In this document: positions 195 to 62,446 of the stretch, piece by piece | Position numbering within the stretch: position 1 is the stretch's first letter | How the letters are laid out: each line of letters begins with the position of its first letter | Assembly: GCA_044866315.1 (NCBI GenBank) | Contig: JBIOTX010000195.1 | Location: 5,175-69,174 of the forward strand | Source: Thermoanaerobaculia bacterium | Lineage (GTDB): Bacteria; Acidobacteriota; Thermoanaerobaculia; Gp7-AA8 | Length of the DNA: 64,000 nt | Direction of reading: 5' to 3' | The notes under the pieces: model-generated | Database searches by the model: none | What the model saw: only the letters and a program-made list of their open reading frames with translations | What the model was told of the DNA's origin: nothing | Made by a program: the position numbers and the translations under genes

Positions 195-222
195 GTCATA
201 GACTCGCCTGGGAGCCCCGCCT

Positions 223-3103: not shown

Positions 3104-3128
3104 CGGCGGTCCGGATCCGCCTTCGACA

Positions 3129-3683: not shown

Positions 3684-3686
3684 GGA

Positions 3687-6067: not shown

Positions 6068-6142
<75 letters not shown>

Positions 6143-6225
6143 TGATCAAGCAGCGAAAAGGAAAGCGAGTGTAGTGAACAGGCCCAAAAGCGTCAATATT
6201 CACCAGTCTGTGGCAGCATGAGCAG

Positions 6226-36152: not shown

Positions 36153-36752
36153 TCAGCAGCGCGACGATGAAAGCTTGCCGTCGCTAGCACACGCGGGAGC
36201 GCACGCGTCGCCACGCTCGAACGCGATCGGAGCACCGTTGCGCCCCAGGTCGATGGCGCAGCACTGGTCGAAGGCTGAGCGCAGTTTCGTACGCGCGCGC
36301 TGCACGCGGGACTTCAGCGTGGAAAGCGGGATGCCGAGCGATGCGGCCAAATCGGTCTGTGCTTCACCTTGCAGATCGATGCGACGGAGGAGTTCGGCGT
36401 CGGACGCGGAAAGCATCCGAAGCATCGGATCGAGGCAGTCGCTGAGATTGCCGATGGCACGGTCGGCCGGATCGACGTCGTCGGTCTCGGGCACGTCGCC
36501 AAAGCTGTCGAGGTCCACCGATGGCCGATGCTGCCGGTAGTACTCGGCGACGGCGTTCCGCGTCACGGTGAAGAGCCAAGCGCGCACGGAGTCGGCGTCG
36601 ATCTCGGCGCGGCGCTCCAGCAGCTTCACCATCACCGACTGCACGACGTCGTCGGCATCGCCGGGATTCACGCGTCGCGCGACGAAGACGCGCAGGCGAT
36701 CCCCGAGCTCGTGCCACGCGGCGGCAACATCGATGGTCTGTTCGGCTTGCAT
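36153..36752 (-). CDS. sigZ: SigZ-like ECF sigma factor with Cys-rich tail
   Basis: DADDVVQ, AWLFTVTRN, STLKSRVQRAR.KL and QCC...CAPAC...C. Confidence 0.85.
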   Translation of the reverse strand: MQAEQTIDVAAAWHELGDRLRVFVARRVNPGDADDVVQSVMVKLLERRAEIDADSVRAWLFTVTRNAVAEYYRQHRPSVDLDSFGDVPETDDVDPADRAIGNLSDCLDPMLRMLSASDAELLRRIDLQGEAQTDLAASLGIPLSTLKSRVQRARTKLRSAFDQCCAIDLGRNGAPIAFERGDACAPACASDGKLSSSRC

Positions 36753-36767
36753 TGGTCCCCCCAAAGA

Positions 36768-36836
36768 TAGACGGAAACGGGCGGCAAAAGACGCATCGCG
36801 TCCCGAAGTGCGTCTTTTCGCCGCCGTCTGCATCTC
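36768..36836. promoter_or_regulatory. back-to-back ECF-type promoters
   Basis: Minus strand TGCGTC-N16-CGTCTA; plus strand TGCGTC-N16-CATCTC; both -35 elements followed by TTTT. Confidence 0.7.
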
Positions 36837-36854
36837 TGTGAACGGAGGACGACG

Positions 36855-38351
36855 ATGCAGACGAACGAGCTTCCCGTTGCAGTCATCGGCGGTGGTCCGG
36901 TGGGCCTCGCTGCCGCGGCACACCTGTTGGAGCGCGGCCTGCGCCCGGTCGTATTCGAGGCGGGGCCGCGAGTCGGTCACGCGATGCGCGACTGGGGGCA
37001 CGTGCGCATGTTCTCGCCGTGGCGCTACGTCGTCGATCACGCGTCGAAGCGAGCGCTCGCGGAGAGTGGCTGGATCATGCCGGATGAGGAAGAACTGCCG
37101 ACTGGACGCGATCTCGTCGAGCAGTATCTCGATCCGTTGGCCGCTCTCCCTTCGATCGGCGCGACCGTGCGTCTCGGCACGCGCGTGGCCGCCGTCTCGC
37201 GGCAGTTCGTGGACAAGGTAAAGACGCCGAACCGCGACGCGATGCCGTTCGTCGTGCGGACGATCGACACGGACGGCGTAGAGCACGACGTGCTCGCACG
37301 CGCGGTCATCGACGCATCGGGAACATGGTTCAAGGCGAATCCCATGGGCGCGAACGGCCTTCCAGCGCGTGGTGAGGCTGCGCACGCTGCGCGAATCCGC
37401 TACGGGATCCCTGACATTCTCGGCAGGGAGCGTGCGCGGTACGCCGGGAAGCGAACGCTCGTCGTCGGAACGGGTCACTCCTCCGTCAACAGTCTGCTCA
37501 CGCTGGTCGAGTTGATGGACCAGGACGAGCGCACGCGCGTGTTCTGGGGGATGCGGCGTAGCGCGCCCGGCAACGCGTTCGGCGGCGGTAATGACGACGC
37601 GCTACCCGCACGCGGCGCGCTCGGGACACGGCTGCGCGCGCAGGTCGAGGCCGGGAACGTGCGCATCCTCGCCGGCCTGCAGATCGGCGCCGTCCAGGAG
37701 AAGGGCGGGGCGCTCGTCATCAGCGACGTGAACGGAAACGAAGTGGCGCTCGTCGATGAGGTGATCGTCGCGACCGGCGCTCGTCCCGAGTTGGAGCTGC
37801 TGCGCGAGATGCGGCTCGATCTCGACTCGGCGCTGGAGAGTCCGCGCGTGCTTGGGCCGCTGATCGATCCCAACGATCACAGTTGCGGATCGGTGCGACC
37901 GCACGGCGCATTCGAGCTGGAGCAGCCCGAGCGCGGCCTGTTCATCGTCGGCATGAAAAGCTACGGGCGCGCGCCGACCTTCCTGCTCGCCACCGGATAC
38001 GAGCAGGTGCGGTCGGTCGCGGCGTACATCGCCGGCGACTACGCGGCTGCGCGCGAAGTACTGCTCGATCTGCCGGAGACCGGCGTGTGCAACGTGACAC
38101 TCGGAGACAAAGACGCGTCCGCGGGATGCTGCGGCGCGGAAACAACGAAGGAGACAGCCATGGCCGAAGTGAGTGCAGTGCAGGAACCAGCGTCCGCGTG
38201 TTGCGGAGGCCCCGCCCCCAAAGAAGCGGATGCGTGCTGCGTAAAAGACGCCGACGCGAAGGCGGCCGGCGAATCGGGCTGCGGGTGCGGCACGGCGAAG
38301 CCGGTGACGAAGAGCGCACCCGCGGCCGCAGCGGCGTGCTGCGGGTCGTGA
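36855..38351 (+). CDS. flavin-dependent oxidoreductase of ars clusters (ArsV-like, tentative) with Cys-rich tail
   Basis: GGGPVG, WGHVRMFSPW, HSCG.V.PHG and GMKSYGRAPTFL; several CC pairs. Confidence 0.8.
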   Translation: MQTNELPVAVIGGGPVGLAAAAHLLERGLRPVVFEAGPRVGHAMRDWGHVRMFSPWRYVVDHASKRALAESGWIMPDEEELPTGRDLVEQYLDPLAALPSIGATVRLGTRVAAVSRQFVDKVKTPNRDAMPFVVRTIDTDGVEHDVLARAVIDASGTWFKANPMGANGLPARGEAAHAARIRYGIPDILGRERARYAGKRTLVVGTGHSSVNSLLTLVELMDQDERTRVFWGMRRSAPGNAFGGGNDDALPARGALGTRLRAQVEAGNVRILAGLQIGAVQEKGGALVISDVNGNEVALVDEVIVATGARPELELLREMRLDLDSALESPRVLGPLIDPNDHSCGSVRPHGAFELEQPERGLFIVGMKSYGRAPTFLLATGYEQVRSVAAYIAGDYAAAREVLLDLPETGVCNVTLGDKDASAGCCGAETTKETAMAEVSAVQEPASACCGGPAPKEADACCVKDADAKAAGESGCGCGTAKPVTKSAPAAAAACCGS

Positions 38352-40362: not shown

Positions 40363-40489
40363 AGCGGGACAGCGACAGAAAGCGATGCGCGCCGCTAAAG
40401 GCGGCGAGCGTGGTGTTTGGGATCATCCGCAAAGCAAGTGGTGAGGCACAGCCTCCTGGTTGCGCTGCTCCTTGCGCTCTCACTGTTGC

Positions 40490-41310
40490 ATGCGAGGATC
40501 GTGATGTCTGCGATTCGGCTTCCGTCGGCATTGACGAAGACGTAGCGACTCACGACGCTACGTTCGCGCCACTCTTTCAACGCCTCGCGGCATAGCGTTG
40601 AGATCGGAACGACGGCCCACTTCTTGGTCTTCTTCATGAGCAGGCGAATGAACCCGCCGTCGAGATCTACCTGCGTCCACTCAAGGTTCAGAAGGTCCAT
40701 CTTTCGCAGGCCCGTCTCGATCGCGACGACAAAAACGCGCTTCAGGCTGCGAAAGCGCTCAAAGCGCATCGTCGTGGACTCGCTGTCGGGATTCGGACCG
40801 AAGCCGAACCGACGCGGCGCATTGAAGTGGCACATCCTCGAACCGGATCTTCTCGGTCAGCGGTGAGGCGCCGATGAGCTGACGTTTCACTGCATGGTTC
40901 ATGAGCGCTTTCATCGTCCGGGCGCAGTTGTTGACGTACGCGGGACTGCATTCGCCGAGCATCGTCGCCATGAAATCTTCGACGTCGCACGAACGAATGC
41001 TGTCGAGCGATCAGTCGTGTGAATGCGATGGTCCGGTAGATCGCGTAGGTCTTCTTCGCGCGCCGTGCACAGATCTTCTCCAGGTACTCGGTCACGAACG
41101 CGCCGAAGGTGATGACGGTTGGCCGCACCGTTGGTTCAGGCGCCGGCGCCTTGCCGCTGATCTCGTCGCGGAAGGCCTGCCACAGCCGGATGGCTTCTCG
41201 CGCGATTCGGCGTGCACCGTGCGCTCGCGCCGCAGCTTGCCGTTCGTCTTCGGGACGTAGAGGGAGAACTGGGCAACGTGCTTCTTGGGGTTGTAGTTCA
41301 AACCTGGAAA
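40490..41310 (-). pseudogene. second tyrosine integrase remnant, paralog of 32331-33399
   Basis: Near-identical blocks (YNPKKH, TMKALMNHAVKRQL, ETGLRKMDLL); several deletions; HxxR/Y region and start lost. Confidence 0.85.
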
Positions 41311-41311
41311 T

Positions 41312-41387
41312 TGGCTGTGGCGGGAGGATTCGAACCTCCGACCAACGGATTAACAATCCGCCGCTCTACCAGCTGAGCTACACCACA
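41312..41387 (-). tRNA. tRNA-Asn(GTT)
   Basis: TGTGGTGTAGCTCAGCTGGTAGAGCGGCGGATTGTTAATCCGTTGGTCGGAGGTTCGAATCCTCCCGCCACAGCCA cloverleaf, G73, CCA. Confidence 0.96.
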
Positions 41388-42708: not shown

Positions 42709-43907
42709 AGCTCGGTTCCTTTCGTCTCCGGGAGGAGCCAGATCAGGATCGCCCCCAGGGCGAAAAAGGCGGCGTCGCAGGCGATGGAGAAGCCGAGGCC
42801 GTACTTGGTCGCCGCGGCGCCGATGGCGTACGGCGCGGCCGCGCCGGCGAGGCGGCCGGCGTTGTAGCAGAAGCCCTGCGCGCTGGCGCGGATGCGCGTG
42901 GGGAAGAGCTCCGCGAGCATGGCCCCGAACAGGGAGAAGTAGCCGTGGGCGAAGTAGCCGACGAGCGGGCCGACGAAGAGCAGGGTCATGGGCGAGCGCG
43001 CGCCGAAGGCGAAGATGGGAACGACGGCCGTCGCGCCGATCATGAAGAGCGTGAATGCAGGACGGCGGCCGATCCGGTCGGCGATCCAGCCGAAGCTGAT
43101 GTAGCCGAGGAACGCGCCGAGCTGGAGGAGCATCAGCCAGGTCGCGGACTTGGTGATGGTCAGTCCCGCGCCGCCCTTCTCGACCGGGGAGGCGAGAAAC
43201 GCGGGGAGCCACGAGGTCACGCCCCAGTAGGCCACGAGCACACACGCGGCGACGAGCGTGGCCAGGAGGGTGCGCCGGCGGAACTCGGCGGAGAAGATCT
43301 CGCTCCAGCGCGACTCGGTCCGCTCGCGCTCGCGCCAGAGCGGCGGCTCTTCGACCGTGCGGCGGATGATGAAGGCGGCGACGGCCGGAGTCGCGCCGAC
43401 CAGGAAGAGCACGCGCCAGCCGAAGCGCTCGAGGAGCAGCGCCGACAGGCCGTAGGCGATGACCGCGCCGATGGCCCACCCGGACTGCATGATGCCCATG
43501 GCCTTGGCGCGATGCTTGGCCGGCCAGGTCTCGGCCACGAGCACGGAGCCGCACGACCACTCCCCGCCCATGCCCAGGCCCACCAGGATGCGCCAGGCGA
43601 TGAGATGCCAGAGCTCCGTCGCCGTGGCCAGCCCGGCCGTCGCGACGGAGTAGAGAAGGATGCTCCAGGTCATGGCCTTGACCCGGCCGATGCGGTCGGC
43701 CAGGCGTCCGAAGACGATCCCGCCGACCGCGGCGGCGAAGAGCGTCGCCGACAGCGGAAGGGCGACTTCTCTCGAAGTGAGGCCGAGCTCCTTCTGGATG
43801 GGAACGACGGCGATGGTGAACAGGAGCACGTCCATCGCGTCGAGCATCCACCCGAGCTGCGCGGCGAAGAGGGCCCGCCACGCGCGGCGGTCGACGTCGG
43901 CGAACAT
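42705..43907 (-). CDS. MFS transporter (organic acid/sialate-like)
   Basis: GWMLDAMD, FGRLADRIGR, GMGGEW and ELFPTRIR. Confidence 0.9.
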   Translation of the reverse strand: MFADVDRRAWRALFAAQLGWMLDAMDVLLFTIAVVPIQKELGLTSREVALPLSATLFAAAVGGIVFGRLADRIGRVKAMTWSILLYSVATAGLATATELWHLIAWRILVGLGMGGEWSCGSVLVAETWPAKHRAKAMGIMQSGWAIGAVIAYGLSALLLERFGWRVLFLVGATPAVAAFIIRRTVEEPPLWRERERTESRWSEIFSAEFRRRTLLATLVAACVLVAYWGVTSWLPAFLASPVEKGGAGLTITKSATWLMLLQLGAFLGYISFGWIADRIGRRPAFTLFMIGATAVVPIFAFGARSPMTLLFVGPLVGYFAHGYFSLFGAMLAELFPTRIRASAQGFCYNAGRLAGAAAPYAIGAAATKYGLGFSIACDAAFFALGAILIWLLPETKGTEL

Positions 43908-43927
43908 GCGCCGGGATTATGAACGAA

Positions 43928-45427
43928 TCAGAAGCAGCTCTTGGTCCGTCCTTCTCCCTGGTTAGCGTCGTCCCACACCCGGAAGTCGACCGTGTACGGG
44001 CCGTCGTATTTGTAGGTATAGGTGAACGAGCCGCAGGTCGTGTGTGTGACCGGCCGGTTCCAGTTGTCGTAGTCGATGATCCAGGTGCACCGCGTCACGG
44101 CGAAGTCGTCGCTGGTGGTGGTGAAGGTGCAGGTGCGCGTGCCGTTGCAACTGCAGACGAAGTCGCCGGTGGGAGGGTTGTCGATCTCCATGCCGCCGGG
44201 CGTGACGAAGAGCAGGCGGTTGGGCGAGGTGCCGGTGAGACGGCTGGAGGTGGCGTTGTTGAGAAGATGGCTTGTCACCGTGGCCGGCGACGCGGCAGTG
44301 TTGGTCTCGAGATAGAGCGCAGCCGCGCCGGAGACGAGGGGCGCGGAGGCGGACGTGCCGTCGAAGGGGCCGGGCAGGCCCTTGCCGGGAGCGAAGAGAT
44401 CGACGCATGTCCCGGTGTTGCTCGACTCGGTGGAGGAGAAGATCGCCCGGGCGTCGTTGATATCCGATGCACCGACGGTGATGGACTGCGGCACCTTCGC
44501 CGGCGAGACCGTACAGGCGTCGCCGCCGCTGTTCCCCGCCGCCGTGACGACGGTGACGCCGGCGTTGTACATCCCGAGCATGGCGCTGTCGTACGCCGAC
44601 GAGTTGGGATAGCCGAAGCTGAGGTTGGCCACCGCCGGGCGGACGCGGTTCTGGGCCACCCAGTTCATGCCGGTGATGACGTCGGAGTCGATGAGATAGC
44701 AGGCGCCGGTGCTGAAGAGCTTCGGGCCGCCCGGACGGCTTCCGTCACCCGACCCGCCTCAGCCGCAGATCGATCCGATCCGCACGTTGTACAGCTTCGC
44801 GCCCTTGGCCACGCCGGACGTCGCGCCGCCAGCCAGCTTGGCCACCTTCGTCCCGTGGCCGTTGCAATCGGCGAAGCGCGGAGCCCCGGCCTCGTCGGTG
44901 ATGGCCGTAAAGGCGTCGACCTTGCGCGTGCCGAATTCCGCGTCGTTGCTGATGCCGGTGTCGAGGATGTAGACGTTCACTCCCACGCCGGTGGTGTTGT
45001 AGGTGAAGTAATTGTTCATCGGCCGGTCCAGCTCGGCCATGCGGTCGAGGCCCCAGTGCGGAACGGACTGCGTGGCGAACAGCTCGCCGCCGTAGGCATC
45101 CTGTTCGACGGTGAGCACGCGCGGGTCGCGCGCCAGCTCGCGCGCGGCGGCCTCGTCGCCGAGGAACACGAAGCCCTGGAGGGCGTGCTCCCAGATCTTC
45201 TCGACGCCTCCGCGGTGGGCGATCGAGAGACGGTGGGCCTGTTCGGCGACGGACATGCCCGGCACGGCCTGCGCGCCGAGCGGCGTCACGGCGTCGGACC
45301 TGAGCTGCACTATGTAGCGGCCGGGAATGGCCCGCTTCGGAATTCTGAAATCGCCGGCCATGGCCGGCACGGCCACGAGGAGAAGTGCGAAAGCGGCGGT
45401 GAGGGAGCTGCTCTGTCTGCGGTTCAT
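43928..45427 (-). pseudogene. S8 subtilase (I9 propeptide, catalytic domain, C-terminal beta domain) split by an in-frame TGA at 44759-44761
   Basis: Signal peptide; ILDTG, DCNGHGT, AAGN and GTSAS; both halves in the same frame. Confidence 0.8.
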
Positions 45428-45686
45428 CGCGCAGACGGTAGAGATGCGCGCAGGGGCGGTCGAAGGAATTGTGATGATCCGGTCGCGCCAACGCGTGACG
45501 GTCTGCCATCGGACGTCAGCCGCACACGGCGGTCAACGTCGGCGAACATGTGCCGGTTATGGCGCGAACGGAGCCGTCGACGAGAAGGACGGAGGGGACG
45601 GCGCGGAAATCCTGCATGAATCGTCCGTCCAACGGGTAGGGAAAGTCTTCGCTGTGCAACTCCTGTGATGGGTCATCATCCAAACG

Positions 45687-46871
45687 GTGGAGGTTCATCT
45701 GTTGCGGGACGGACGAAAAGTCGTGTTCCTTCTCCACGGCGTCGACCCCGATCTCGACGAGCGGGGGGTGCCTGCCTGGTACGCGCCGGTGCGGCGCGAG
45801 CTGGAGGCGTTCTACGATGTGGTGGAGCTCCGCTACAGGCGGTATGACCGGTTCGGCAAGGTCCTCCTGACGACGTTCGGTGGCGCACCGATCGCGGCGA
45901 TTCTCATCGCGGCCTTCCTGCTCTTGCTCGGCCGCACTTCCGTGGTGGCCGTTGCCTCTGCAATTGCGGTTTTGCTGATTGGATGTCTCGCCTGCGCGGT
46001 GGAGCTCTTCCGGCGCAATGCATCGAGCCGTGAGGTCGCCGGTCAGTTGGGCAACGGCGCAGCGAGAAGAGAGAATCATCTGATAGCCCACAGCTTCGGG
46101 ACGTTCCTGTTTCCGCGGGCGGCTCGGCGCGCACCCGTTCCGCTGCAGCACGTCATCCTGACTGGCTGCGTGCTCTCACGACGGTTCGACTGGGAAGCGT
46201 TCTGGCACCATCGCGGAGACGGCGTGCGCCTGTTTCAGCACGTTCGCAACGAGTGCAGCACCGGCGACCGCATCGCCCGATGGGCCGGTCTGGCCACGCT
46301 CCTGACCGGCCTCGGAGATGCAGGGGCGCGAGGGTTCCTATCTTCGGACCGACCCGGTGCGCCATCGGTGCACAACGTCAACGGCCCGTGGGGACCATGC
46401 CGCGCGGCTTCCGCGGCCTGTCGCAAACCGCCGGTGATTCACAATCTGGTCCTCCATGCTTATGGCCATGACGGCGTATTTTTGTCCGGAGTGCACGCCC
46501 GCAATCTGTGGCTACCCACGTTCTGGTCGTATGATCCGCTCGCCTTCAGCGAATTCGTGATCCGATGCGGAGAGATTCTGGAGCAGCAGGAGCAGCACTA
46601 TTCGGTGCGAGAAATGTACGACGCGCTGGCTGACGAGCCTTTCCCGTGGTTTTCGATGGACTCCTCCGCGCCAAAGTCGATCCGCGCGGTCGTAGAAGGC
46701 GAAGCCGGCGCGAGAGGTCTCGCCGTCACCCCGGATCGACTTGCGCTGATCACCCAACGCACGTGCGAGTCGATGGTGGTGGCTTGGCAGCAGCCGGACA
46801 TCGAAGGACGAATGCTGGCCTACCCGCGTCAGGCCCTCGGCTGGTCCATGAAGAAGGTTCTGGAATTTTGA
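45687..46871 (+). CDS. membrane-anchored alpha/beta-hydrolase-like protein
   Basis: LLHG, two TMs, IAHSFGT elbow, later D and H candidates; TGATG coupling to the sigma gene. Confidence 0.65.
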   Translation: MEVHLLRDGRKVVFLLHGVDPDLDERGVPAWYAPVRRELEAFYDVVELRYRRYDRFGKVLLTTFGGAPIAAILIAAFLLLLGRTSVVAVASAIAVLLIGCLACAVELFRRNASSREVAGQLGNGAARRENHLIAHSFGTFLFPRAARRAPVPLQHVILTGCVLSRRFDWEAFWHHRGDGVRLFQHVRNECSTGDRIARWAGLATLLTGLGDAGARGFLSSDRPGAPSVHNVNGPWGPCRAASAACRKPPVIHNLVLHAYGHDGVFLSGVHARNLWLPTFWSYDPLAFSEFVIRCGEILEQQEQHYSVREMYDALADEPFPWFSMDSSAPKSIRAVVEGEAGARGLAVTPDRLALITQRTCESMVVAWQQPDIEGRMLAYPRQALGWSMKKVLEF

Positions 46872-47437
46872 TGGGCGAATCCGGCGGCGACGACCTCGAG
46901 GAGGCGCTCGCCCGTCTGGCCGAATTCCCTGGCGACCAAGAGGCGTGGGCGACGATCTACCGCCGGACGGCACCGTTCATTTTGTCGATCACGTTTCGGA
47001 TGATGCAGGACTTTAGCGCGGCGGAAGACGTGGCCCAGGAAACGTTCCTCCGCGTCGCCCACTATTATCCGTTCCACCGCCGTTTCGAGCCGAAGATCTT
47101 CAAGATCTACATCGCCCAGATCGCGCGGAACGCGGCGCTTGACGCCCGGCGCAAGCACGCACGGGTGCCCCAGACCGGGTTGGAAGAGGCGACGGAAAGG
47201 GCCGATCCCGGTCCCGAGCCGGGGGCGGAGGCGCAGGTGGCCAGTACCTTGGCCTGGCTTGAGCAGCGGTTGACGGCTCAGGAGGCCGAGCTGTTCCGCC
47301 AGCTCATCGCCGAGGTGCCGCGGCCTCTGTCGGAGATTGCCGATGGGCTCGGCGTTTCCTACAATGCGGCCGGGGTGCGCCTGCATCGGCTTCGGAGGCG
47401 GATTGGCAAACTCCTCGGTATCCGAGTAAAGTCATGA
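46871..47437 (+). CDS. ECF sigma factor
   Basis: AEDVAQETFL, IARNAALD and EIADGLGVS....VRLHRLRRR. Confidence 0.88.
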   Translation: MGESGGDDLEEALARLAEFPGDQEAWATIYRRTAPFILSITFRMMQDFSAAEDVAQETFLRVAHYYPFHRRFEPKIFKIYIAQIARNAALDARRKHARVPQTGLEEATERADPGPEPGAEAQVASTLAWLEQRLTAQEAELFRQLIAEVPRPLSEIADGLGVSYNAAGVRLHRLRRRIGKLLGIRVKS

Positions 47438-47562
47438 CAGCCGCGGCTGTTTTGTATGGTAAGACGCCTCCCCAGGGGTCCTCGTCTCAAACATTTTTTC
47501 GAAACCCTGCGTAAAACCAGGTTGTTGGCCCGGGTTTGGTAGGTCTCAGGAGGTGTGACGTG

Positions 47563-47988
47563 ATGATGAGTGACGCTGAAAAGGTGTCCGACATTCTGGC
47601 CCGTCTGCAGGCCGTCGACCGGATGGTGCTTCCGCAGCGCATTCACGATTTCGCGAATGCCTCCGCCGCCGAGCTCACCCCGGAGTGCATCGAGCCCTAC
47701 GAGCTGGCAGAGGTCGGGCGCTTCCACGAGCTGCCTCCGGCGCGCCAGAAGCACGTCCTCTCCTGCACGCTTTGCGCGCTGGTCGTGGGCGTTGAAAGGA
47801 CAGGCACGCCCGGCATCGCCGCCTCGGAGAACGTCGCCGCAACCGCAGCGGTCGCGCGCACTGCAGCGCGCCGGCCCTGGACCATCGCCGCCATTGTAGC
47901 TGCCATCGCCGTCGGTATCGCGACCGTCTTCGCCACGGGCGTGAAGTTGTTTGATCGCCTCAGCCTGCGAGTCGTCGCGCGCCGGTAA
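47563..47988 (+). CDS. putative zinc-finger (ZAS-like) anti-sigma with one TM
   Basis: AGGAGG RBS; C...HVLSCTLC (HxxxCxxC); C-terminal TM. Confidence 0.65.
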   Translation: MMSDAEKVSDILARLQAVDRMVLPQRIHDFANASAAELTPECIEPYELAEVGRFHELPPARQKHVLSCTLCALVVGVERTGTPGIAASENVAATAAVARTAARRPWTIAAIVAAIAVGIATVFATGVKLFDRLSLRVVARR

Positions 47989-48303
47989 TCCCCTCACTCG
48001 CGATACCTGACCTCTCCAATCCGCATCGAGTGCAGCCTCGGCTGCGACTCCTCTGTTCGCCGAATTGTGACGGTCTGCTCCGTAAAGACTGACGCTCCCT
48101 CAAAGTTTTTGAATGTATAGCCGCGGACGGTCGACGCAGACGCGCGCCGCCGCCAGCTATCGAACTCTCACGCGATCCGGTTGGACGTTCGGAGTCGCTG
48201 ATTCGAGACCCTGGGAAGCTCGTTCGGCGCTCTATCCGTGAGCCTCTCGCGTCGAGCCCATTTGATCGAAGCCATGGGAGACGTGTGTCTGCAGGAGGCC
48301 GCA

Positions 48304-49224
48304 ATGAAAGTTCCGGACGAGAACGCCGCACCGGACGTCCTTGAGTCAGCTGCAAGCGAAGGGAAATGGGACATGGTCATACCAGAGCGATACAAGACGC
48401 AGCGTAATCAATCGCGAATCTTCACCTTCACCTGCGAACGCCTGGCCGCGCGATTGCCCGGCCAGGGCATCGATCGCGCGCGACTGGCGGACTACATTGA
48501 GTACGCGCTCGAGCTGATCGAGCGTTCGGTCCGCACCGACGCGCGGCGTCGACCTCCGAAGGATCAGTGGTCCCGGCCGATCGTGGCCGTGCTCGAAACG
48601 GCCTACCTGCTCGATCGCGAGGAACTGCGTCTCAAATTCCTGAGCGCCGCCAAGCTCGGAGCCCAGCTGATCCCGTGGCTGGACGAGGAAGACCTCCGGT
48701 CGTCGGCGACCAGTCGCGTGCTGGCCTACGCGGCGAATCCGATCAATCCGCCGCTTCGGAGAGTGGAGGGGCTGTTTTTCACGGCGGCCCGCAATCTCTT
48801 CCGCGACCTGTTGCGCAAGGAACGGCGCGAGCAGGAAGCGGCCAGGGAGATGATTCGGCGCGCCGCCTTGCGCGAGCGCGAGGGCGAGCAGGAAGAGGCG
48901 CGGCCGGAGCTGCAATTCCCGCCGGACGAGGTTCGCCGCGCCCTGATCCCCTTCAGTCTCAACAAACTTCGCCAGCAGAGGCGTAGCCGGCGCACGCGTC
49001 GCCAAGCCGCACAGCGCGTGCGCGGATTCGCCATGACCGTGACGATGATGATCCCCCAGCCGCAGCTGTCGCGGGACGAGTGTCGGCTCATGGCCATCCG
49101 GCGCGCCGCCGCGATCAACCACCGCACCGGAAAAACGGCCGTTCTCGTTCCGCCGCGGGCGACGTTCTACGCCTGGCTGGACGAATTGAACGCGCGCGTC
49201 AAGCGCGCGCACGGGGTGGCGTGA
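48304..49224 (+). CDS. divergent sigma-region-2-like protein A
   Basis: GGAGG RBS; DEEDL...LFFTAARNLFRDLLRK; C-terminal PRATFYAW. Confidence 0.7.
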   Translation: MKVPDENAAPDVLESAASEGKWDMVIPERYKTQRNQSRIFTFTCERLAARLPGQGIDRARLADYIEYALELIERSVRTDARRRPPKDQWSRPIVAVLETAYLLDREELRLKFLSAAKLGAQLIPWLDEEDLRSSATSRVLAYAANPINPPLRRVEGLFFTAARNLFRDLLRKERREQEAAREMIRRAALREREGEQEEARPELQFPPDEVRRALIPFSLNKLRQQRRSRRTRRQAAQRVRGFAMTVTMMIPQPQLSRDECRLMAIRRAAAINHRTGKTAVLVPPRATFYAWLDELNARVKRAHGVA

Positions 49225-49322
49225 GAACGTGACCGAGTTCGGGAGAGAACCGCCGATTCCGCGTCTATAGAACAAATGAACCAACAGGTAATCCTCCAAG
49301 CAACACCTCGAAAGGAAATCTT

Positions 49323-50210
49323 ATGTGTCCCGACGAATACCGGTCCGTGGCTGCCCAGCGAATGATCAAGTGTCAGGCCCTGATGCAGATCGTAGCATCG
49401 GGCGAGAACGCCTTGATGGCGGACGTAGACTCCGAGCTCGAGCCGCTGATGCCGTTCGCAATGTCCCTCGTCGACGAGAACGGGAAAGAGCCCCCAGACG
49501 GCCAATGGCCCGACTTCCTCGTCTACGTCGCCACGTCCATCTACCGGCTCACTCGTCCGGCCCTGCGCCAGCGGTTCATCGTCGCCGTGCATCACGGCCT
49601 GTTTGCGTCCACCACCAACAACAACGTACCCATCGATGAGGAGGACTTATGGAGCATGTCACTGGCCACGGTCATGAAGCGCATCGCCGATCCCACACGC
49701 GAGCCTGTTCGGGAGCCGGACAAATTCCTCTTCAAAACGGCGAAAAACATTTTTCAGAATGAGATCCGGAGGTTGAACCACGAACGCTCCGTAACCCAGG
49801 AGCTCATGGAGCGCTCCGCGCGCCGCGAACGGCGAAAGGAGTGGCTGCGCGCGCGCGGAATCGAGGACCTCGCGGTGGAGCTCGAAGAAGAACTGCCGCT
49901 GTTCGTAAACGACAAACTGAAACAGCAAACACGCAGTAAACGGACTCGTGCGGTCGCGGAGGCGAGGATCAAGGGATTCGCCATGGTCATCGAGATGGTC
50001 ATGCAGCATCCCGAGCGCTCGCTTGACGCCTGCCGCATTCGAGTGGAAAGGATCGCCGACAGAATCAACCGTTACGCTCCGACGACGTTCGCCATCGTTC
50101 CCGGGCGTTCTACGTTCTTCCGTTGGACGAACGAGCTCGTAGGCCGGATCCGATCGCGGGCCGAGCGGCGCGTCGTGTTCCCGTTTACCGAGCGAGCGGC
50201 AGGCTTCTGA
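49323..50210 (+). CDS. divergent sigma-region-2-like protein B, paralog of A
   Basis: AAAGGA RBS; DEEDL...FLFKTAKNIFQNEIRR; C-terminal GRSTFFRW. Confidence 0.75.
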   Translation: MCPDEYRSVAAQRMIKCQALMQIVASGENALMADVDSELEPLMPFAMSLVDENGKEPPDGQWPDFLVYVATSIYRLTRPALRQRFIVAVHHGLFASTTNNNVPIDEEDLWSMSLATVMKRIADPTREPVREPDKFLFKTAKNIFQNEIRRLNHERSVTQELMERSARRERRKEWLRARGIEDLAVELEEELPLFVNDKLKQQTRSKRTRAVAEARIKGFAMVIEMVMQHPERSLDACRIRVERIADRINRYAPTTFAIVPGRSTFFRWTNELVGRIRSRAERRVVFPFTERAAGF

Positions 50211-50229
50211 TCATCGACGATGAAAAAAC

Positions 50230-51045
50230 ATGAATAAAGACGACAATCGACACCATTGCCACCACCTCCCCAAATTTGCGCCGTCCAAAGCCGTTGGCCC
50301 CAATGAATTCGAACATGCCCTGGAGTGCAACGACTGTTGGGCGGCGCTCATCCGATGGATGGATGCGGAGGTGATCAACCTCCCGGAATCCGCCGACATC
50401 CGCGGCCGCGCCAAGCGCCTCGCCGGTGTCGCGGAGATCATGGCCACCATGGCCGCCGGAACCGGCCCGCTCGAAGGCGAGGAGGCCATCGCGAACGAAG
50501 TGTTCGACGACGCCACCCTCGACGACGTGCTCGAGGCCACGCAACACGAATCGAGACTGGTTCGCGGCCCCTGGCCTTCTCCTCGGACCCGCTCTCGCAG
50601 AAAGGAGACCCCATGCGCAAATGGAAAAATTGCCAGCTCGTCCTCGCCGGAATCCCTGGAGGGATGCACGACCGAAACATCCACCGAGGAGCGCAGCGAA
50701 GAGGGTGTTTGTCGGCGACGACGAATGAACGAATGCGAGCCACCACGAACAATGGCCCAGGCTGCTCATGCTGTGGGCCCTGTGAGTGTGGCGCTGCCAA
50801 ACGGTGCAATTGAGGCGATCAGGACCATCGTCAGCACCCTCGGGCTCGAAAAGATCGCCGCCGGCCTGTCCACGACCACAGCCGAGACGAACGTCTGCAT
50901 GGCCGTCACCAGCCACAGCACGGCCCGCCTGTGCGAAAGCTGCGCGCTCCGGGGACAATGCCGGCTCGCCTCGGTCCCTCACCTGGGCGTGAGCTTCTGT
51001 GTCCCGCTCAGCGACGGTCACTTCGCGGAGCAATCAGTCCATTGA
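50230..51045 (+). CDS. Cys-rich protein with N-terminal ZAS-like motif (may be more than one gene)
   Basis: C...HALECNDC at the N-terminus; CESC.....C near the C-terminus; internal RBS at 50601. Confidence 0.5.
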   Translation: MNKDDNRHHCHHLPKFAPSKAVGPNEFEHALECNDCWAALIRWMDAEVINLPESADIRGRAKRLAGVAEIMATMAAGTGPLEGEEAIANEVFDDATLDDVLEATQHESRLVRGPWPSPRTRSRRKETPCANGKIASSSSPESLEGCTTETSTEERSEEGVCRRRRMNECEPPRTMAQAAHAVGPVSVALPNGAIEAIRTIVSTLGLEKIAAGLSTTTAETNVCMAVTSHSTARLCESCALRGQCRLASVPHLGVSFCVPLSDGHFAEQSVH

Positions 51046-51056
51046 TTCGAAGAGAT

Positions 51057-51085
51057 AGACTGCCGGTCCTAAGGGCCGGCAGTCT
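51057..51085. terminator. hairpin between convergent genes
   Basis: AGACTGCCGGTCC / GGGCCGGCAGTCT inverted repeat. Confidence 0.6.
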
Positions 51086-51091
51086 GCCGCG

Positions 51092-52468
51092 CTATCCCTT
51101 CACGCGCTGCAGGAGAAACGTCTCCATCCCCACGTCCACCGGCAGCCCGCCCGACTTGCGCTTGACGTCGAGGTCGGCGACGTCGGCGAGGGCGCGGAAG
51201 AGATCCGCCTCGCTGAAGGTGCGCGCGGCTTCCCACTTCTTGTGCAGGGGGAAGGGGTGGGGGCGCTGGCGCACGAGGCCGTGCTGTTTGAGGTAGTCGC
51301 CGAGCTTGTCGGCGATGGCGTCCTTGAAGCGGTTGTACGGCATGGAGGCCTTGAGATTGACGTTCTGCATGCGCGCCCAGGAGTGGATGCCGATCATCTG
51401 GCGGATCTCTTCGGCCAGGGGAAAGAGGAAGCGGCCGTAGTGGATCTCCGCCGATGCCTTCGCGTCTTCGCGGCGGGCCTGGGCGACGAGGTCGCGCAGC
51501 TTCGCCACGGCCTCGATGATCTTCCCCTCGGTGAAGAGCGATCCGAGCTCGTAGCGCGCGCCGCCTTCGATGGCGGAGATCTCGCGCTCGACCATGTCCG
51601 CGGTGATGCGCCCGCCGCTGCCCGCCAGCGTGGCCAGGCGCTCGGCCTCGGAGACGGCCAGGCGGAGGTCGGGGACGTCGCGCGAGAACTTGTCGGCGAG
51701 CATGCGCTCGATGCCGAGGCGCTGGCGCAGGCGAGCGACGGCATTCGCGTCGAACTTCACGCCGGCCTCGGAGGCCACCTGGGCGATGGCCTGCTCGAGC
51801 GCGGCGGCGAAGCCCTCGCGGGTGAGATCGGCGACGACGACCGCGCCCTGCTTGTCGATCAGCTCCGTCGTGGCGGAGTCGCGCGGCACCTCGCCGGTGC
51901 GCATGAGGAGGATCGTGCCGGGCGCGCCGCCTCGGGCGATCGCTTCCATCAGCAGCGCGGCGTCATCCTCGCCGCGGCCGGCTTTCTTGCCGGTGGCGCG
52001 GCAGAAGGCGAGCATGTCCGCGAGCGTGCTGTCGGCGACGCCGAGGGCGTCGGCGATGGCGCGGTCGGTCATGTCCAGGTCAGCGCCGGCGAGGCCGAGG
52101 ACGTGGAGAAGCTTGGCCGCGGCGGAGGCGCGCTTGCGGTCGGTCTTGGCGCTCTTCCAGTCGGCGACGGCCTTCTCGTACAGCGAAGCGATCTCCTTCG
52201 CCGACACGAAGGCGTTGACCTCGGGGACGATGACGAGGCGCGCCCCGCCGAAGAGGGACATGGTGCGGTAGGAGTCGAGGATGGCGCCGAGGTCGGCGCC
52301 GGGCTCGTAGGTCTCGACGTTGATCGAGGGAGTCCTGGCGACGATGGCGTCGCGGATGTCGTGGAAGGCGCGCTCGGAGAGGAAGTCGGACGAGCCGCCG
52401 ACGAGAAGGACGCGCGGAGGAGTGCCCTTTTCGATTTGGGCGAGGATCGAAGTCAGCGGCTTCGGCAT
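51092..52468 (-). CDS. holA: DNA polymerase III delta subunit-like
   Basis: TMSLFGG.RLV.V, E.ERL.T and D...KSG; longer than typical. Confidence 0.75.
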   Translation of the reverse strand: MPKPLTSILAQIEKGTPPRVLLVGGSSDFLSERAFHDIRDAIVARTPSINVETYEPGADLGAILDSYRTMSLFGGARLVIVPEVNAFVSAKEIASLYEKAVADWKSAKTDRKRASAAAKLLHVLGLAGADLDMTDRAIADALGVADSTLADMLAFCRATGKKAGRGEDDAALLMEAIARGGAPGTILLMRTGEVPRDSATTELIDKQGAVVVADLTREGFAAALEQAIAQVASEAGVKFDANAVARLRQRLGIERMLADKFSRDVPDLRLAVSEAERLATLAGSGGRITADMVEREISAIEGGARYELGSLFTEGKIIEAVAKLRDLVAQARREDAKASAEIHYGRFLFPLAEEIRQMIGIHSWARMQNVNLKASMPYNRFKDAIADKLGDYLKQHGLVRQRPHPFPLHKKWEAARTFSEADLFRALADVADLDVKRKSGGLPVDVGMETFLLQRVKG

Positions 52469-52475
52469 GGAGCGG

Positions 52476-52569
52476 ATGAAGGCAGAAGGCAGAAGGCAAA
52501 AGGCAAAAGGCAGAAATGATCCGCCGCCGTTCTGCCCTCTGCCTTCTGCCTTCTGCCTTCTGCCTTCAT
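52476..52569. repeat. inverted pair of 7-bp tandem repeats (GAAGGCA)n / (TGCCTTC)n
   Basis: Directly visible; forms a long hairpin between dksA-like and holA. Confidence 0.9.
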
Positions 52570-52624
52570 ATTGAAAAGGAGCGCCGAAGCGCTCCTCCTG
52601 CAAATCGGCGCACCGGCGATGGTG

Positions 52625-60370: not shown

Positions 60371-62446
60371 TCAGCGCGCCGCGGGCATCCTGGCGAGCAT
60401 CGCCTGCGCGGTCTGCCGCTGACGCGTCCAGGCCGGGTCGTTCGCCGAGCGGGCGATGAAGGTGCGGTAGTCGGCCGCGGCCGCGGCCAGATCGCCGCCG
60501 AGCTGCAGGGCCACGGCGCGATTCAGTCGGGCCTCGAGATAGTCGGGCGAGAGCTGAAGGGCGCGATCGAAGCTGGCCACGGCGTCGGAGAAGCGGTTCT
60601 GATCGATCTGCAGCGCGCCGAGGCCGTTGAAGGGATCGGGATAGTTCGGAGCGAGGGCGATGGCCCTGCGGAAGGCCTCCTCCGCCTCGGCGGCATTGCC
60701 CATCGCCCGCGCGGCGTTGCCGATGTTGTTGTGCACGCGCGCGTTTCGCGGATCGATGGCCGCCGCCTTCCGGAACTCTTCGAGCGCCACTGCCTGCCGG
60801 CCTTCCGCAGAGTGGATGATCCCGAGCACGTTGTGGGCGTCGGGGTTGTTCGCGTCGCGCCGCAACGCCTCGCGCACCGCTTCCGCGGCGCGCGGAAGAT
60901 CGCCCGCCTCCTGGAACGCGGCGGCGAGGTTGTACCAGGCTTGGGCGTCTTCCGGCGCGAAGGCCACCGACTCGCGGTACAACTCGATGGCGCGCTCGGC
61001 GCGGCCGCGATGGCGCTCGACTTTCGCCAGCGTCGCGCGAAAGACCGAGTTTTCCGGATCGCGGCGCATGAGGTCCTCGAGCATGGCCGCGGCCTCGTCG
61101 TAGCGCTTCGCCGTCGTGGCCCACGTGGCCTCTTCGAACTTGCGGAACAGCGGCGCCATCACCTTCGGGTCGGGACGCGGTCCCGTGCGCGGCGACGGCA
61201 CGCCGCCGACATACCCGAGCGCAGCCAGCTTGGCCATGGCCTCGGCATCCGGCGCAGTGGACGGTTTCGCGGGTTTCGCCGTCGTCGCGCGCAGCGTGGT
61301 CAGGCTGTCGGAGAGCGCGCGCATCACCCGCCGCTCGTCGCTGTACAGATTGCGGCTCTCGCCCGGATCGCGCGCGAGGTCGTACAGCTCCGGTGCCGGC
61401 GCGGCGATGAATTTGTTGTTGCCGCGGCGCAGCGCCGCGAGCGCGCTCCAGCCGAAGACGGTCGGATACTCGGTCTCCGCGTAGACGTCCGCCGCCGGCG
61501 GCTCGTCGCCCTTGCGCAGGAACTCCGACAGATCGCGGCCGTCGACCTTCGGCGCATCCGCGAGCTGCATTAGTCCGGCGAGCGTGGGCATGATGTCGGC
61601 GAGGCTGACGGGCGTCTTCACCACGCCCGGCTTCATGAGGCCCGGCGCGGCGACGATCAGCGGCACGCGCAGCGTCGGCTCGTAGAGCAGGAGGCCGTGG
61701 GTCAGTTCTCCGTGCTCGCCGAGGGCCTCGCCGTGATCGCCGGCGATGACCACGATCGTGTCGTCGCCCACCTGGGCGAGCAGCCGCTGCACCTGCTGGT
61801 CGACAAAGGCGATCTCGCCGTCGTACGGCGACGACGCGTACTTGCTGCGAAACGGCTCCGGCGCGGCGTACGGCGCGTGCGGATCGTAGAGGTGGACCCA
61901 GCCGAAGAACGGCCGCCCGTCGTTCGCGCCGAGCCAGGCCAGGGCCCGGTCGACGACGTGGTCGGCGCGGCGCTCGGCCTCGAGATGATCGCCGAGGGTG
62001 GGATCGCGGGGGATCTCGTCGTCGTACACGGCGAAGCCGCGATTGAGTCCGAAGCGGTGATCGAGCACGAACGCGCCGGTGAACGCGCCGGTGCGATACC
62101 CACGCGCCTCGAGGAGCGTGGCCAGCGTCGGCCGATCCTCGGGGAAGGTGCCGAGGCCGTTGTTGCGCAGGCCGTGGTGGAGCGGGAGCAGTCCGGAAAG
62201 GATGGTCGCGTGGGAGGGCAGCGTGAGCGGCACCGCGCTGCCGGCGCGGTCGAAGCGGACGCCGCGCGCGGCGAGGGCGTCGATGTTCGGGGTCGTGCCG
62301 CTTTTCGAGCCGTAGGCGCCGACGTGATCGGCGCGGAGGGTGTCGAGGGTGATGAGGAGGACGTTGTAGTTCTTCGGTTCCGCCCGCGCGCAGGAGAGAA
62401 GAAGGCAGAAGGCAAAAGGCAGAAGGCAGAAGGCAGAACGTTTCAC
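60371..62446 (-). CDS. sulfatase-like hydrolase with C-terminal TPRs; probable lipoprotein
   Basis: [14 protein letters not shown] in place of CxPxR, HLYDPH.PY and GDHGE; GTG overlaps the pccB stop. Confidence 0.88.
62401..62438. repeat. (GAAGGCA)x5 inside the signal-peptide coding region
   Basis: gaaggca gaaggca aaaggca gaaggca gaaggca gaa. Confidence 0.9.

What the first reader, a model, noticed from the sequence alone, without database searches (positions are those of the whole stretch)
48304..51045. Tandem pair of divergent sigma-like paralogs plus a Zn-finger partner: candidate new transcription system
Seen: two ~300-aa ORFs align end to end (PPKDQW/PPDGQW; LDEEDL/IDEEDL; LFFTAARNLFRDLLRK/FLFKTAKNIFQNEIRR; NKLRQQRRSRRTR/DKLKQQTRSKRTR; RVRGFAM/RIKGFAM; LSRDECR/RSLDACR; VPPRATFYAW/VPGRSTFFRW). 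The central blocks resemble ECF region 2. The C-terminus is not a normal region 4 but a basic helix plus an RxTFxxW HTH-like end. A HxxxCxxC protein follows, and a conventional ECF/anti-sigma pair precedes them in a visibly less GC-rich block. Inference: a non-canonical sigma family, possibly heterodimeric or acting in a cascade, or sigma mimics that sequester RNA polymerase or anti-sigmas. I do not recognise this architecture.
Basis: partly seen in the sequence, partly recalled or inferred. Interest (0 to 1): 0.75.

Follow-up and report, generated by a model that had tools for sequence, protein, structure and literature searches.

The report
Divergent sigma-like paralog pair cassette
Two neighbouring genes in an uncultured soil acidobacterium encode very divergent relatives of bacterial sigma factors, followed by a cysteine-rich partner gene, in a rare horizontally acquired six-gene regulatory cassette that fits no described family.

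Summary
A (48304-49224) and B (49323-50210) are real paralogs: 34% identity over 240 aa, E 4e-38. C (50230-51045) carries an invariant C-x18-H-x3-C-x2-C motif. A canonical ECF sigma/anti-sigma pair lies upstream.

The central block is a true but very divergent sigma region 2:
- profile-profile P 9.6e-6, score 41.9 against a null maximum of 23.3
- 9 of the top 20 genome-wide profile hits are ECF sigma genes
- one distant family member passes Pfam's Sigma70_r2 cut-off

The C-terminal basic, HTH-like domain shows no sequence similarity to region 4. No curated family covers A, B or C.

The family is tiny: 13 representatives among 1.84 billion proteins. The genes belong to a six-gene cassette inside a 7.2-kb insertion; a congeneric genome has the site empty and carries a divergent copy elsewhere. 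A unique 37-nt bipartite element conserved upstream of B looks like a dedicated promoter.

Best reading (about 0.5): A and B are non-canonical ECF-like sigma factors, and B-C is an autoregulated sigma/anti-sigma-like unit. The fold test could not be run because the structure service was unavailable. The heterodimer, cascade and mimic ideas remain untested.

Verdict: new variant of a known kind; moderate interest.

The parts
43898..51110 (.). 7.2-kb insertion relative to a congeneric genome. It holds an S8 peptidase gene read in two frames plus the six-gene cassette.
   Evidence: blastn: G026 contig C38 (L049) positions 1-5003 match window 56155-51111 at 78%, and 5334-7196 match window 43897-42032 at 79%. 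In G026 only 330 bp separate holA from the LamB/YcsF gene. The cassette is 63.3% GC against 67.35% for the genome.
45687..46871 (+). Gene X: 394-aa protein with a hydrophobic hairpin (residues 56-110) and an HSFGT motif. No family match. First gene of the X-ECF-anti-sigma operon.
   Evidence: ORF. No Pfam, PHROG or PADLOC hit. Hydrophobic segment. 35% identical orthologue in the G026 cassette. Its stop overlaps the ECF start (TGATG). Reading HSFGT as a hydrolase nucleophile elbow is recalled knowledge, not tested here.
46871..47437 (+). Canonical ECF sigma factor
   Evidence: Pfam Sigma70_r2 E 3.1e-11. TIGR02937 59.3 bits, above the 42.9 cut-off. 38% identical orthologue in G026.
47536..47988 (+). 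Tail-anchored ZAS-motif anti-sigma-like protein
   Evidence: HxxxCxxC conserved with G026. Hydrophobic segment at residues 113-139. hhalign against own-genome ZAS domains scores 26.3, P 8e-4. No Pfam zf-HC2 hit.
48304..49224 (+). Paralog A (clade A): sigma-2-like core plus basic HTH-like C-terminus. Alternative starts at 48238 (GTG) and 48373 (ATG).
   Evidence: TIGR02937 16.3 bits, E 0.0056, residues 148-238.
49235..49271 (+). Conserved bipartite DNA element: GAGTTYGGGAGA, 13 nt, CGCGTCTATAGA. Inferred promoter or operator of B-C.
   Evidence: 29 of 37 positions are identical between the window and G026, and the rest of the spacer is not conserved. Single copy in the window (1 match, 0.01 expected), in the own genome (3 matches against 1 control at up to 2 mismatches) and in G026 (1 against 0). 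Its function is inferred.
49323..50210 (+). Paralog B (clade B): the most conserved gene of the cassette
   Evidence: 62% identical to the G026 orthologue, against 27-45% for the other cassette genes. Conserved AAAGGA ribosome-binding site before the ATG.
50230..51045 (+). Gene C: soluble Cys-rich protein with an N-terminal C-x18-H-x3-C-x2-C motif and a C-terminal Cys cluster
   Evidence: In 5 of 5 sequences C10, H29, C33, C36, C129, C146, C235, C238 and C244 are invariant. No hydrophobic segment. No family hit.
51057..51085 (.). Perfect hairpin downstream of C, convergent with holA. Cassette-borne terminator (inferred).
   Evidence: Inverted repeat I22, 14-nt arms. A similar hairpin follows C in G026 although the flanking gene differs.

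Best explanation
A and B are ancient paralogs of a very small, undescribed branch of the sigma-70/ECF superfamily. Each has four parts:
- an N-terminal extension of about 60 aa
- a genuine but highly divergent sigma region-2 domain
- a long charged linker
- a basic arm followed by an HTH-like C-terminal domain, which takes the place of region 4 but is not recognisably region 4 by sequence

I read them as non-canonical ECF-like sigma factors. B, its 19-nt-downstream neighbour C and the hairpin after C form a classical unit in the order promoter, sigma, anti-sigma, terminator. In that unit the unique conserved element at 49235-49271 (GGGAG-N16-CGTC spacing) would be the dedicated, probably autoregulated, promoter. 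C, a soluble protein with a ZAS-type Cys/His motif and a second Cys cluster, would hold B (and perhaps A) inactive until a thiol, redox or metal signal arrives. A has no adjacent partner. It would act upstream or in parallel, possibly linking the neighbouring canonical ECF/anti-sigma/membrane-protein operon to B-C.

Shown: paralogy, sigma-2 homology, rarity, conserved gene order, conserved Cys/His ligands, the conserved single-copy DNA element, and the cassette being an insertion.

Inferred: RNA polymerase binding, DNA binding by the C-terminal domain, the anti-sigma role of C, promoter function of the element, and the order of any cascade.
For: Paralogy: 34% identity over 240 aa, E 4e-38.

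Sigma-2 homology:
- hhalign of the 16-member family alignment A2 against 38 ECF sigmas of the same genome gives probability 82.6, P 9.6e-6, score 41.9, with B residues 104-156 on ECF positions 35-85. Nulls: reversed alignment 11.9; 60 column shuffles with mean 11.8 and maximum 19.9; 60 block shuffles with mean 15.1 and maximum 23.3.
- The aligned hallmarks are DEEDLWS on DAEDLVQE and FLFKTAKNIFQNEIRR on WLxRIAxNxxxDxxR.
- 4 of 16 members hit Pfam Sigma70_r2. P0017 reaches 25.5 bits, above the cut-off of 24.
- 6 of 16 members hit TIGR02937, and 15 of the 18 weakly matched NCBIfam families are sigma factors.
- An HMM of the sigma-2 part, run over 56,651 six-frame ORFs of the genome, has 9 of its top 20 non-self hits on sigma-70/ECF genes. 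Background is 0.82%, binomial P 2.6e-14.
- All 4 weak hits in 400 other genomes of the phylum fall on profile positions 92-204. One is a bona fide ECF: Pfam region 2, E 8.7e-10.
- 4 of 6 sub-threshold PDB hits are ECF sigmas, for example SigE 9m9d_F at E 0.076.

Partner C: the motif is invariant in 5 of 5 sequences.

DNA element: 29 of 37 positions identical across cassettes whose proteins are only 27-62% identical, and single copy in both genomes.

The hairpin after C is also conserved.

A language-model lead places the C-terminal 111 aa nearest to Sigma70_r4, r4_2 and GerE clusters at scores of 0.81-0.85. This is a lead only.
Against: - Neither A nor B reaches any curated sigma threshold. 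A scores 16.3 bits against 42.9 for TIGR02937, and neither has a Pfam region-2 hit at E <= 1.
- The C-terminal domain shows no region-4 signal. hhalign scores 13.2 against whole ECFs and 9.5 against region 4 alone, where the null mean is 10.9. Only 1 of the top 20 HMM hits is on a sigma gene. No member hits Pfam region 4 at E <= 5.
- The Q-E of region 2.2 is replaced by S-M or S-S, so core binding may differ or be lost.
- C does not match zf-HC2. Its hhalign score against ZAS domains, 15.4, lies within the null range (maximum 16.0).
- The element's reading as a promoter rests on two genomes only.
- No fold, no expression data and no binding data were obtained.
Confidence: 0.5

Rival explanations
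1. A and B are sigma mimics or decoys. They keep a degenerate sigma-2 surface to bind the ZAS-motif proteins (C or the membrane anti-sigma), so they titrate anti-sigma factors away from the canonical ECF sigma. This is analogous to the sigma-like domain of PhyR. They would not bind RNA polymerase.
For: The cassette has three sigma-like genes but only two ZAS-motif genes. The region 2.2 Q-E residues are replaced. No region 4 is detectable.
Against: No receiver or other switch domain is present: neither A nor B matches such a Pfam family at E <= 1 (B has only a weak HTH_55 hit at E 0.095). The strongly conserved basic arm and the RSTFxRW end (P260, T264 and W268 invariant in 16 of 16), together with a conserved single-copy DNA element in front of B, point to DNA binding. 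A pure decoy would not need that.
Confidence: 0.15
2. A and B are ordinary DNA-binding transcription regulators (activators or repressors) that merely descend from a sigma-2 domain. They control the acquired island, for example its own expression or maintenance, and do not act as sigma subunits.
For: The genes lie in a 7.2-kb insertion of low GC content. The C-terminal domain is not region 4 by sequence. The bipartite element could equally be an operator.
Against: The retained region 2.1-2.4 pattern includes the A-x-N and D/N-x-x-R positions. The sigma/anti-sigma-like gene order with a ZAS-motif gene is what sigma systems show. No integrase, transposase or transfer gene lies in the insertion. 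No homologue of B was found in 72,556 plasmid or 50,697 phage records.
Confidence: 0.17
3. A and B work only together, as a heterodimeric or two-subunit sigma factor.
For: A B-clade gene is preceded by an A- or A'-clade gene in tandem in the window and in G026. A third metagenomic contig is inferred to hold both, from equal contig length.
Against: Known split sigmas divide regions 2 and 4 between two short proteins (passages of bioRxiv 10.64898/2026.10.01.756105). Here both paralogs are full length and collinear. The partner of B belongs to different clades in different cassettes, A in the window and A' in G026. The A-B interaction was not tested.
Confidence: 0.08
4. The genes are decaying remnants of ECF sigma genes with no function.
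For: Extreme divergence from curated models. An S8 peptidase gene in the same insertion is read in two frames.
Against: The frames are open and full length in all 16 family members. Three well-supported clades exist, and many columns are conserved across 20-83% identity. GC3 is 0.78-0.80, as in neighbouring genes. A conserved ribosome-binding site and upstream element are present.
Confidence: 0.03

Closest known systems
ECF (group 4) sigma-70 family factors with co-transcribed ZAS anti-sigma factors (such as SigR-RsrA and SigE-ChrR; these names are recalled). The nearest solved chains by sequence are ECF SigE 9m9d_F and 6dxo_A.
   Same: A homologous region-2 core. The gene order is sigma-like gene, then a gene with an HxxxCxxC motif, then a terminator. 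A bipartite upstream element has GGGAG-N16-CGTC spacing resembling ECF promoters; the promoter consensus is recalled.
   Different: About 100 aa longer than typical ECFs. Below every curated sigma threshold. No detectable region 4. A long charged linker and a basic arm of about 20 aa. Present as a tandem paralog pair. C matches no ZAS profile.
ECF-like sigmas that the ECF re-classification left out because region 2 or region 4 misses the Pfam models (SigI, ComX, VP0055, phage sigmas): PMC7826278, discussion passage read.
   Same: The same situation: sigma-related proteins that are invisible to the Pfam-based ECF census.
   Different: A and B are related to none of those named examples in any search run here. 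The family was seen only in metagenome-derived sequences; the named ones are from a Thermoanaerobaculia MAG.
Two-subunit (split) sigma factors: SigO-RsoA of B. subtilis, Sig7-Sig8 of Tn916, T4 gp55/gp33, SPO1 gp33/gp34 (passages of bioRxiv 10.64898/2026.10.01.756105).
   Same: Two adjacent sigma-related genes, here on an acquired DNA segment.
   Different: In split sigmas each subunit carries only one of regions 2 and 4. A and B are collinear full-length paralogs.
PhyR-type sigma mimicry (recalled)
   Same: A degenerate sigma-like domain that might bind an anti-sigma factor.
   Different: A and B have no receiver domain, and they keep a conserved basic, HTH-like C-terminus.

Membership tests
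Sigma-70 family, ECF group | Region 2 domain recognised by curated models (Pfam PF04542, TIGR02937) | tested here: not met
   A: no Pfam hit at E <= 1; TIGR02937 16.3 bits against a cut-off of 42.9. B: no sigma hit in Pfam. Only the distant family member P0017 passes PF04542, at 25.5 bits against a cut-off of 24.
Sigma-70 family, ECF group | Homology of the core to region 2.1-2.4 (remote, profile level) | tested here: met
   hhalign P 9.6e-6, score 41.9 against a null maximum of 23.3. 9 of the top 20 genome-wide HMM hits lie on sigma genes against a 0.82% background. 4 of 16 members hit PF04542 and 6 of 16 hit TIGR02937. The top PDB hits are ECF sigmas.
Sigma-70 family, ECF group | Region 4 HTH domain (PF08281/PF04545) | tested here: not met
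   hhalign score 9.5 against a null mean of 10.9. 0 of 16 members hit a region-4 model at E <= 5. 1 of the top 20 HMM hits lies on a sigma gene. Only a language-model lead at 0.81-0.85 points to region 4 or GerE. The fold was not obtained.
Sigma-70 family, ECF group | Binds core RNA polymerase and directs promoter-specific initiation | not testable with these tools
   Needs pull-down and in vitro transcription.
ZAS (zinc-binding) anti-sigma factors, Pfam zf-HC2 PF13490 | H-x3-C-x2-C motif with an upstream Cys/His ligand | tested here: met
   C10, H29, C33 and C36 are invariant in 5 of 5 C proteins. The upstream ligand sits 18 residues before the His. This is shorter than the roughly 24-25 I recall for RsrA and ChrR.
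ZAS (zinc-binding) anti-sigma factors, Pfam zf-HC2 PF13490 | Profile-level match to the anti-sigma domain | tested here: not met
   No PF13490 hit for C at E <= 1. C is not among the 25 genome hits. hhalign score 15.4 lies within the null range, mean 10.6 and maximum 16.0.
ZAS (zinc-binding) anti-sigma factors, Pfam zf-HC2 PF13490 | Binds and inhibits its cognate sigma factor | not testable with these tools
   No usable result was obtained here. It needs co-purification or two-hybrid experiments.
Two-subunit split sigma factors (SigO-RsoA type) | Regions 2 and 4 divided between two short proteins | tested here: not met
   A and B align end to end and each carries both parts.
PhyR-type sigma mimics | Sigma-like domain fused to a receiver domain | tested here: not met
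   No receiver domain or any other Pfam domain in A or B.

The most novel reading that the evidence does not exclude
A and B found a new branch of the sigma-70 superfamily. In it a region-2 domain is joined, through a long charged linker and a basic arm, to a DNA-binding module that is not region 4. RNA polymerase would then be directed to an unusual bipartite promoter (GAGTTYGGGAGA, 13 nt, CGCGTCTATAGA). The paralog pair plus the double-Cys-cluster protein C would form a self-contained, horizontally transferable redox- or metal-gated transcription switch.
Probability: 0.2. Interest if true: 0.7.

Novelty: new variant of a known kind. Interest (0 to 1): 0.5.

Why it matters
ECF sigma factors are catalogued with Pfam region 2 and region 4 models, so families like this one are invisible to those censuses. 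The authors of the ECF re-classification say so themselves (PMC7826278, passage read).

This case shows a sigma-2 domain joined to a C-terminal module that sequence methods cannot assign, kept as an old paralog pair beside a ZAS-motif partner. If A or B does bind RNA polymerase, it would widen the known range of promoter-recognition modules in the sigma-70 family. It would also give a compact switch with its candidate promoter already identified.

Interest is tempered. The family is tiny and known only from uncultured soil Acidobacteriota. The architecture still follows the familiar sigma/anti-sigma pattern.

Tried and rejected
No model and no fold search were possible.
- Complex prediction of B with C residues 1-125 gave no verdict: runs 0.48, 0.00 and 0.18 against a mark of 0.32. 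This is not evidence either way.
The sources of P0011-P0017 are therefore unknown.
- The search for related loci found only the G026 contig in genome contigs. In metagenome contigs it found no relative and then only a 20-residue chance-like match.
- No RNA holder was listed among the sequencing runs.
- No B homologue in the plasmid or phage collections.
- PADLOC gave no hit for any of the six proteins, and PHROGs none for the five scanned, the ECF sigma not among them. A defence-system reading has no support.
- The PDB sequence search with A alone or with alignment A1 returned only noise.
- P0020, an 850-aa repeat protein, was judged spurious and left out of the alignments. The fragments P0014, P0018 and P0019 were also left out.
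- A shared CGAATTG 7-mer upstream of A in both genomes was rejected, because that many shared 7-mers are expected by chance. The regions upstream of A do not align.
- The top genome hits of the C-terminal HMM have no informative Pfam family.
- No terminal repeats or target duplication were seen at the insertion borders.
- The earlier-findings look-ups gave nothing relevant.
- Literature: 0 papers hold 'Thermoanaerobaculia' together with 'sigma factor'. A search on remote-homology sigma discovery gave 4 unrelated papers.
Full report
**1. What is there.**
On the + strand the window carries six genes in a row:
- X: 45687-46871
- an ECF sigma: 46871-47437
- an anti-sigma-like gene: 47536-47988
- A: 48304-49224. 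A GTG at 48238 and an ATG at 48373 are alternative starts. ATG 48304 has AGGAGG 6 nt upstream, while homologues begin at the 48373 position.
- B: 49323-50210
- C: 50230-51045

A perfect hairpin at 51057-51085 follows C (I22). After it comes the convergent holA. A and B align collinearly at 34% identity over 240 aa, E 4e-38.

One detail is wrong. The ECF pair does not sit in its own low-GC block. The whole cassette is 63.3% GC against 67.35% for the genome, in the lowest 3.9% of 1,943 windows of 5.4 kb. B is the lowest at 60.8%.

**2. No curated family.**
A, B and C have no significant hit in Pfam, PHROGs, NCBIfam or PADLOC. A has only a sub-threshold TIGR02937 match: 16.3 bits against a cut-off of 42.9, E 0.0056, residues 148-238. 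PDB sequence searches with A or with the 10-row alignment gave noise.

**3. Rarity.**
- In the 5.8-billion-cluster collection B has 7 matches including itself, and A has 2. JGI labels two of them 'sigma24 family'; NCBI calls one 'hypothetical'.
- An exhaustive profile search of 1.84 billion representatives found 13 proteins at E <= 1e-3. I regard one of them, P0020, a repeat protein, as spurious. Three are fragments.
- Among 60 relatives, only G026 has the pair. That is 1 of 34 other genomes of the same genus.
- In an even sample of 400 other genomes of the phylum there was no full-length match.
- No homologue appeared in the plasmid or phage collections.
- A tree of the 16 full-length members shows three supported clades: B (P0001-7), A (100/99) and A' (99/96), plus two long-branch outliers. 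The window and one metagenomic contig pair A with B. G026 pairs A' with B.

**4. The core is sigma region 2.**
- hhalign of the 16-row alignment against 38 ECF sigmas taken from the same genome (from the TIGR02937 hits) gives probability 82.6, P 9.6e-6 and score 41.9, with B residues 104-156 on ECF positions 35-85.
- The nulls are much lower: reversed query 11.9; 60 column shuffles with mean 11.8 and maximum 19.9; 60 seven-column block shuffles with mean 15.1 and maximum 23.3.
- The aligned hallmarks are DEEDLWS on DAEDLVQE and FLFKTAKNIFQNEIRR on WLxRIAxNxxxDxxR. The Q-E of region 2.2 is not kept.
- 4 of 16 members hit Pfam Sigma70_r2, and the outlier P0017 passes the curated cut-off at 25.5 against 24 bits.
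- 6 of 16 members hit TIGR02937, and 15 of the 18 weakly matched NCBIfam families are sigma factors.
- An HMM of the sigma-2 part, run over 56,651 six-frame ORFs of the genome, places 9 of its top 20 non-self hits on sigma-70/ECF genes. Background is 0.82%, binomial P 2.6e-14.
- The 4 weak hits in other genomes of the phylum all fall on the same profile stretch. One is a bona fide ECF. The other three are weak (L040, L041) or not sigma-like by Pfam (L042).
- With the 16-row profile, 4 of the 6 sub-threshold PDB hits are ECF sigmas: SigE 9m9d_F at E 0.076 and 6dxo_A at E 0.091.

**5. The C-terminus is not recognisable region 4.**
- hhalign of residues 185-295 against whole ECFs scores 13.2. Against region 4 alone it scores 9.5, where the null mean is 10.9 and the maximum 14.5.
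- 0 of 16 members hit a region-4 model at E <= 5.
- Only 1 of the top 20 HMM hits lies on a sigma gene, and the best of these hits have no Pfam family.
- The segment carries net charge +6 in residues 193-220 and +5 in residues 221-280. P260, T264 and W268 are invariant across all 16 members.
- A protein-language-model look-up of residues 185-295 places it nearest to Sigma70_r4, r4_2 and GerE clusters at 0.81-0.85. By the tool's own calibration this is a lead only.
- Reading 'R-S-T-F-x-R-W' as an HTH recognition helix is my inference.

**6. Gene C.**
- Five sequences share invariant C10, H29, C33 and C36, that is C-x18-H-x3-C-x2-C. They also share a conserved helix-like RAKRLAG stretch, the additional Cys residues C129 and C146, and a C-terminal cluster of C235, C238 and C244.
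- C has no hydrophobic segment.
- It matches no zf-HC2 profile. Its hhalign score against 15 ZAS domains of the genome is 15.4, within the null range of mean 10.6 and maximum 16.0.
- The ZAS assignment therefore rests on the motif and on the gene order.
- The homologues of C report the same longest-contig lengths as the homologues of B: 6092, 7917 and 6177 bp. I read this as co-location.
- By contrast the upstream anti-sigma-like gene scores 26.3, P 8e-4, against the same ZAS alignment. It has a C-terminal hydrophobic segment.

**7. A mobile six-gene cassette.**
- G026, a Thermoanaerobaculia MAG, carries all six genes. The X-ECF-anti-sigma operon is inverted relative to A'-B-C, and the cassette lies next to hslUV, not holA.
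- Protein identities between the two cassettes are X 35%, ECF 38%, anti-sigma 29%, A/A' 27%, B 62% and C 45%. The core genes holA and rlmH are 82% identical.
- At the window's site G026 is empty. Its holA is followed after 330 bp by the LamB/YcsF gene. Window 43898-51110 is therefore a 7.2-kb insertion, made of the cassette plus an S8 peptidase gene read in two frames.
- No integrase or transposase lies inside the insertion, and no border repeats were seen.

**8. Conserved non-coding signals.**
- In the A-B spacer a 37-nt block, window 49235-49271, is 29 of 37 identical between the two cassettes. It consists of GAGTTYGGGAGA and CGCGTCTATAGA, 13 nt apart. The rest of the spacer is not conserved, apart from the AAAGGA ribosome-binding site.
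- The element is single copy in the window (1 match, 0.01 expected), in the genome (3 matches against 1 control at up to 2 mismatches) and in G026 (1 against 0).
- GGGAG-N16-CGTC has the spacing I recall for ECF promoters. That it is the promoter of B-C is an inference from two genomes.
- The hairpin after C is also conserved, although the flanking genes differ.
- A short block, CGGGTAGGGA, is shared upstream of X. The regions upstream of A do not align.

**9. Interpretation.**
The most economical reading is that A and B are non-canonical ECF-like sigma factors of an undescribed small family. B-C would form a classical autoregulated sigma/anti-sigma-like unit with its own promoter and terminator. 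A would be an older paralog acting upstream or in parallel, next to a canonical ECF/anti-sigma/membrane-protein operon.

Rivals are sigma mimicry, plain DNA-binding regulators that descend from a sigma-2 domain, an obligate heterodimer, and gene decay. Their evidence is listed in the Rival explanations section. Split sigmas of the SigO-RsoA or Sig7-8 type (passages of bioRxiv 10.64898/2026.10.01.756105) do not fit, because both paralogs are full length.

The ECF re-classification states that ECF-like sigmas whose domains miss the Pfam models are outside its scope (PMC7826278, passage read). That explains why such a family would be unlisted. I found no paper on it: 0 papers for Thermoanaerobaculia plus sigma factor and nothing relevant. 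Supplements were not consulted.

**10. Verdict.**
This is a real, rare and undescribed variant of the sigma-70/ECF kind, with an unassigned C-terminal module, sitting in an acquired regulatory cassette. Sigma-2 homology is well supported (about 0.9). Sigma function and the anti-sigma role of C are inferred (about 0.5). Interest is moderate.

Noticed in passing
window 40395-41387: tRNA-Asn (41312-41387, minus strand) lies next to a phage-type integrase read in two overlapping frames (40395-40835 with a Pfam Phage_integrase hit, and 40742-41356). This is probably a degraded integrase at a tRNA integration site. In G026 the tRNA-Asn lies about 7 kb further from the LamB/YcsF gene.
   Followed up: partly
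window 43928-45427 (minus strand): An S8 subtilase gene is read in two frames: the N-terminal part at 44759-45427 and the C-terminal part at 43928-44668. This is a frameshift, a pseudogene or an assembly error. It lies inside the same 7.2-kb insertion as the cassette.
   Followed up: no
window about 52470-52570, and about 62398-62440: A palindromic dispersed repeat built of GGCAGAA-type heptamers. It gives 217 blastn HSPs in the own genome. Its translation matched more than 100 places in G026. It inflates the apparent N-terminus of the holA ORF.
   Followed up: partly
window 45687-46871: Gene X: 394 aa, with a hydrophobic hairpin at residues 56-110 inserted into what looks like an alpha/beta-hydrolase-like protein (HSFGT motif; that reading is recalled). 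It has no family match and is translationally coupled to the ECF sigma gene. Partial weak homologues occur in only 2 of 400 other genomes of the phylum.
   Followed up: partly
window 36153-37478 (minus strand): The ORF as listed is 441 aa, and sigma regions 2 and 4 match only at residues 259-399. Either the N-terminal extension is long or the true start lies downstream.
   Followed up: no
L041 and L042 (two other genomes of the phylum): Two related sigma-like proteins of about 200 aa (shared block LLELL.P.R..A.QRYEE) score below Pfam region 2/4 thresholds but are picked up by the A/B profile. They may be another under-annotated ECF-like group.
   Followed up: no
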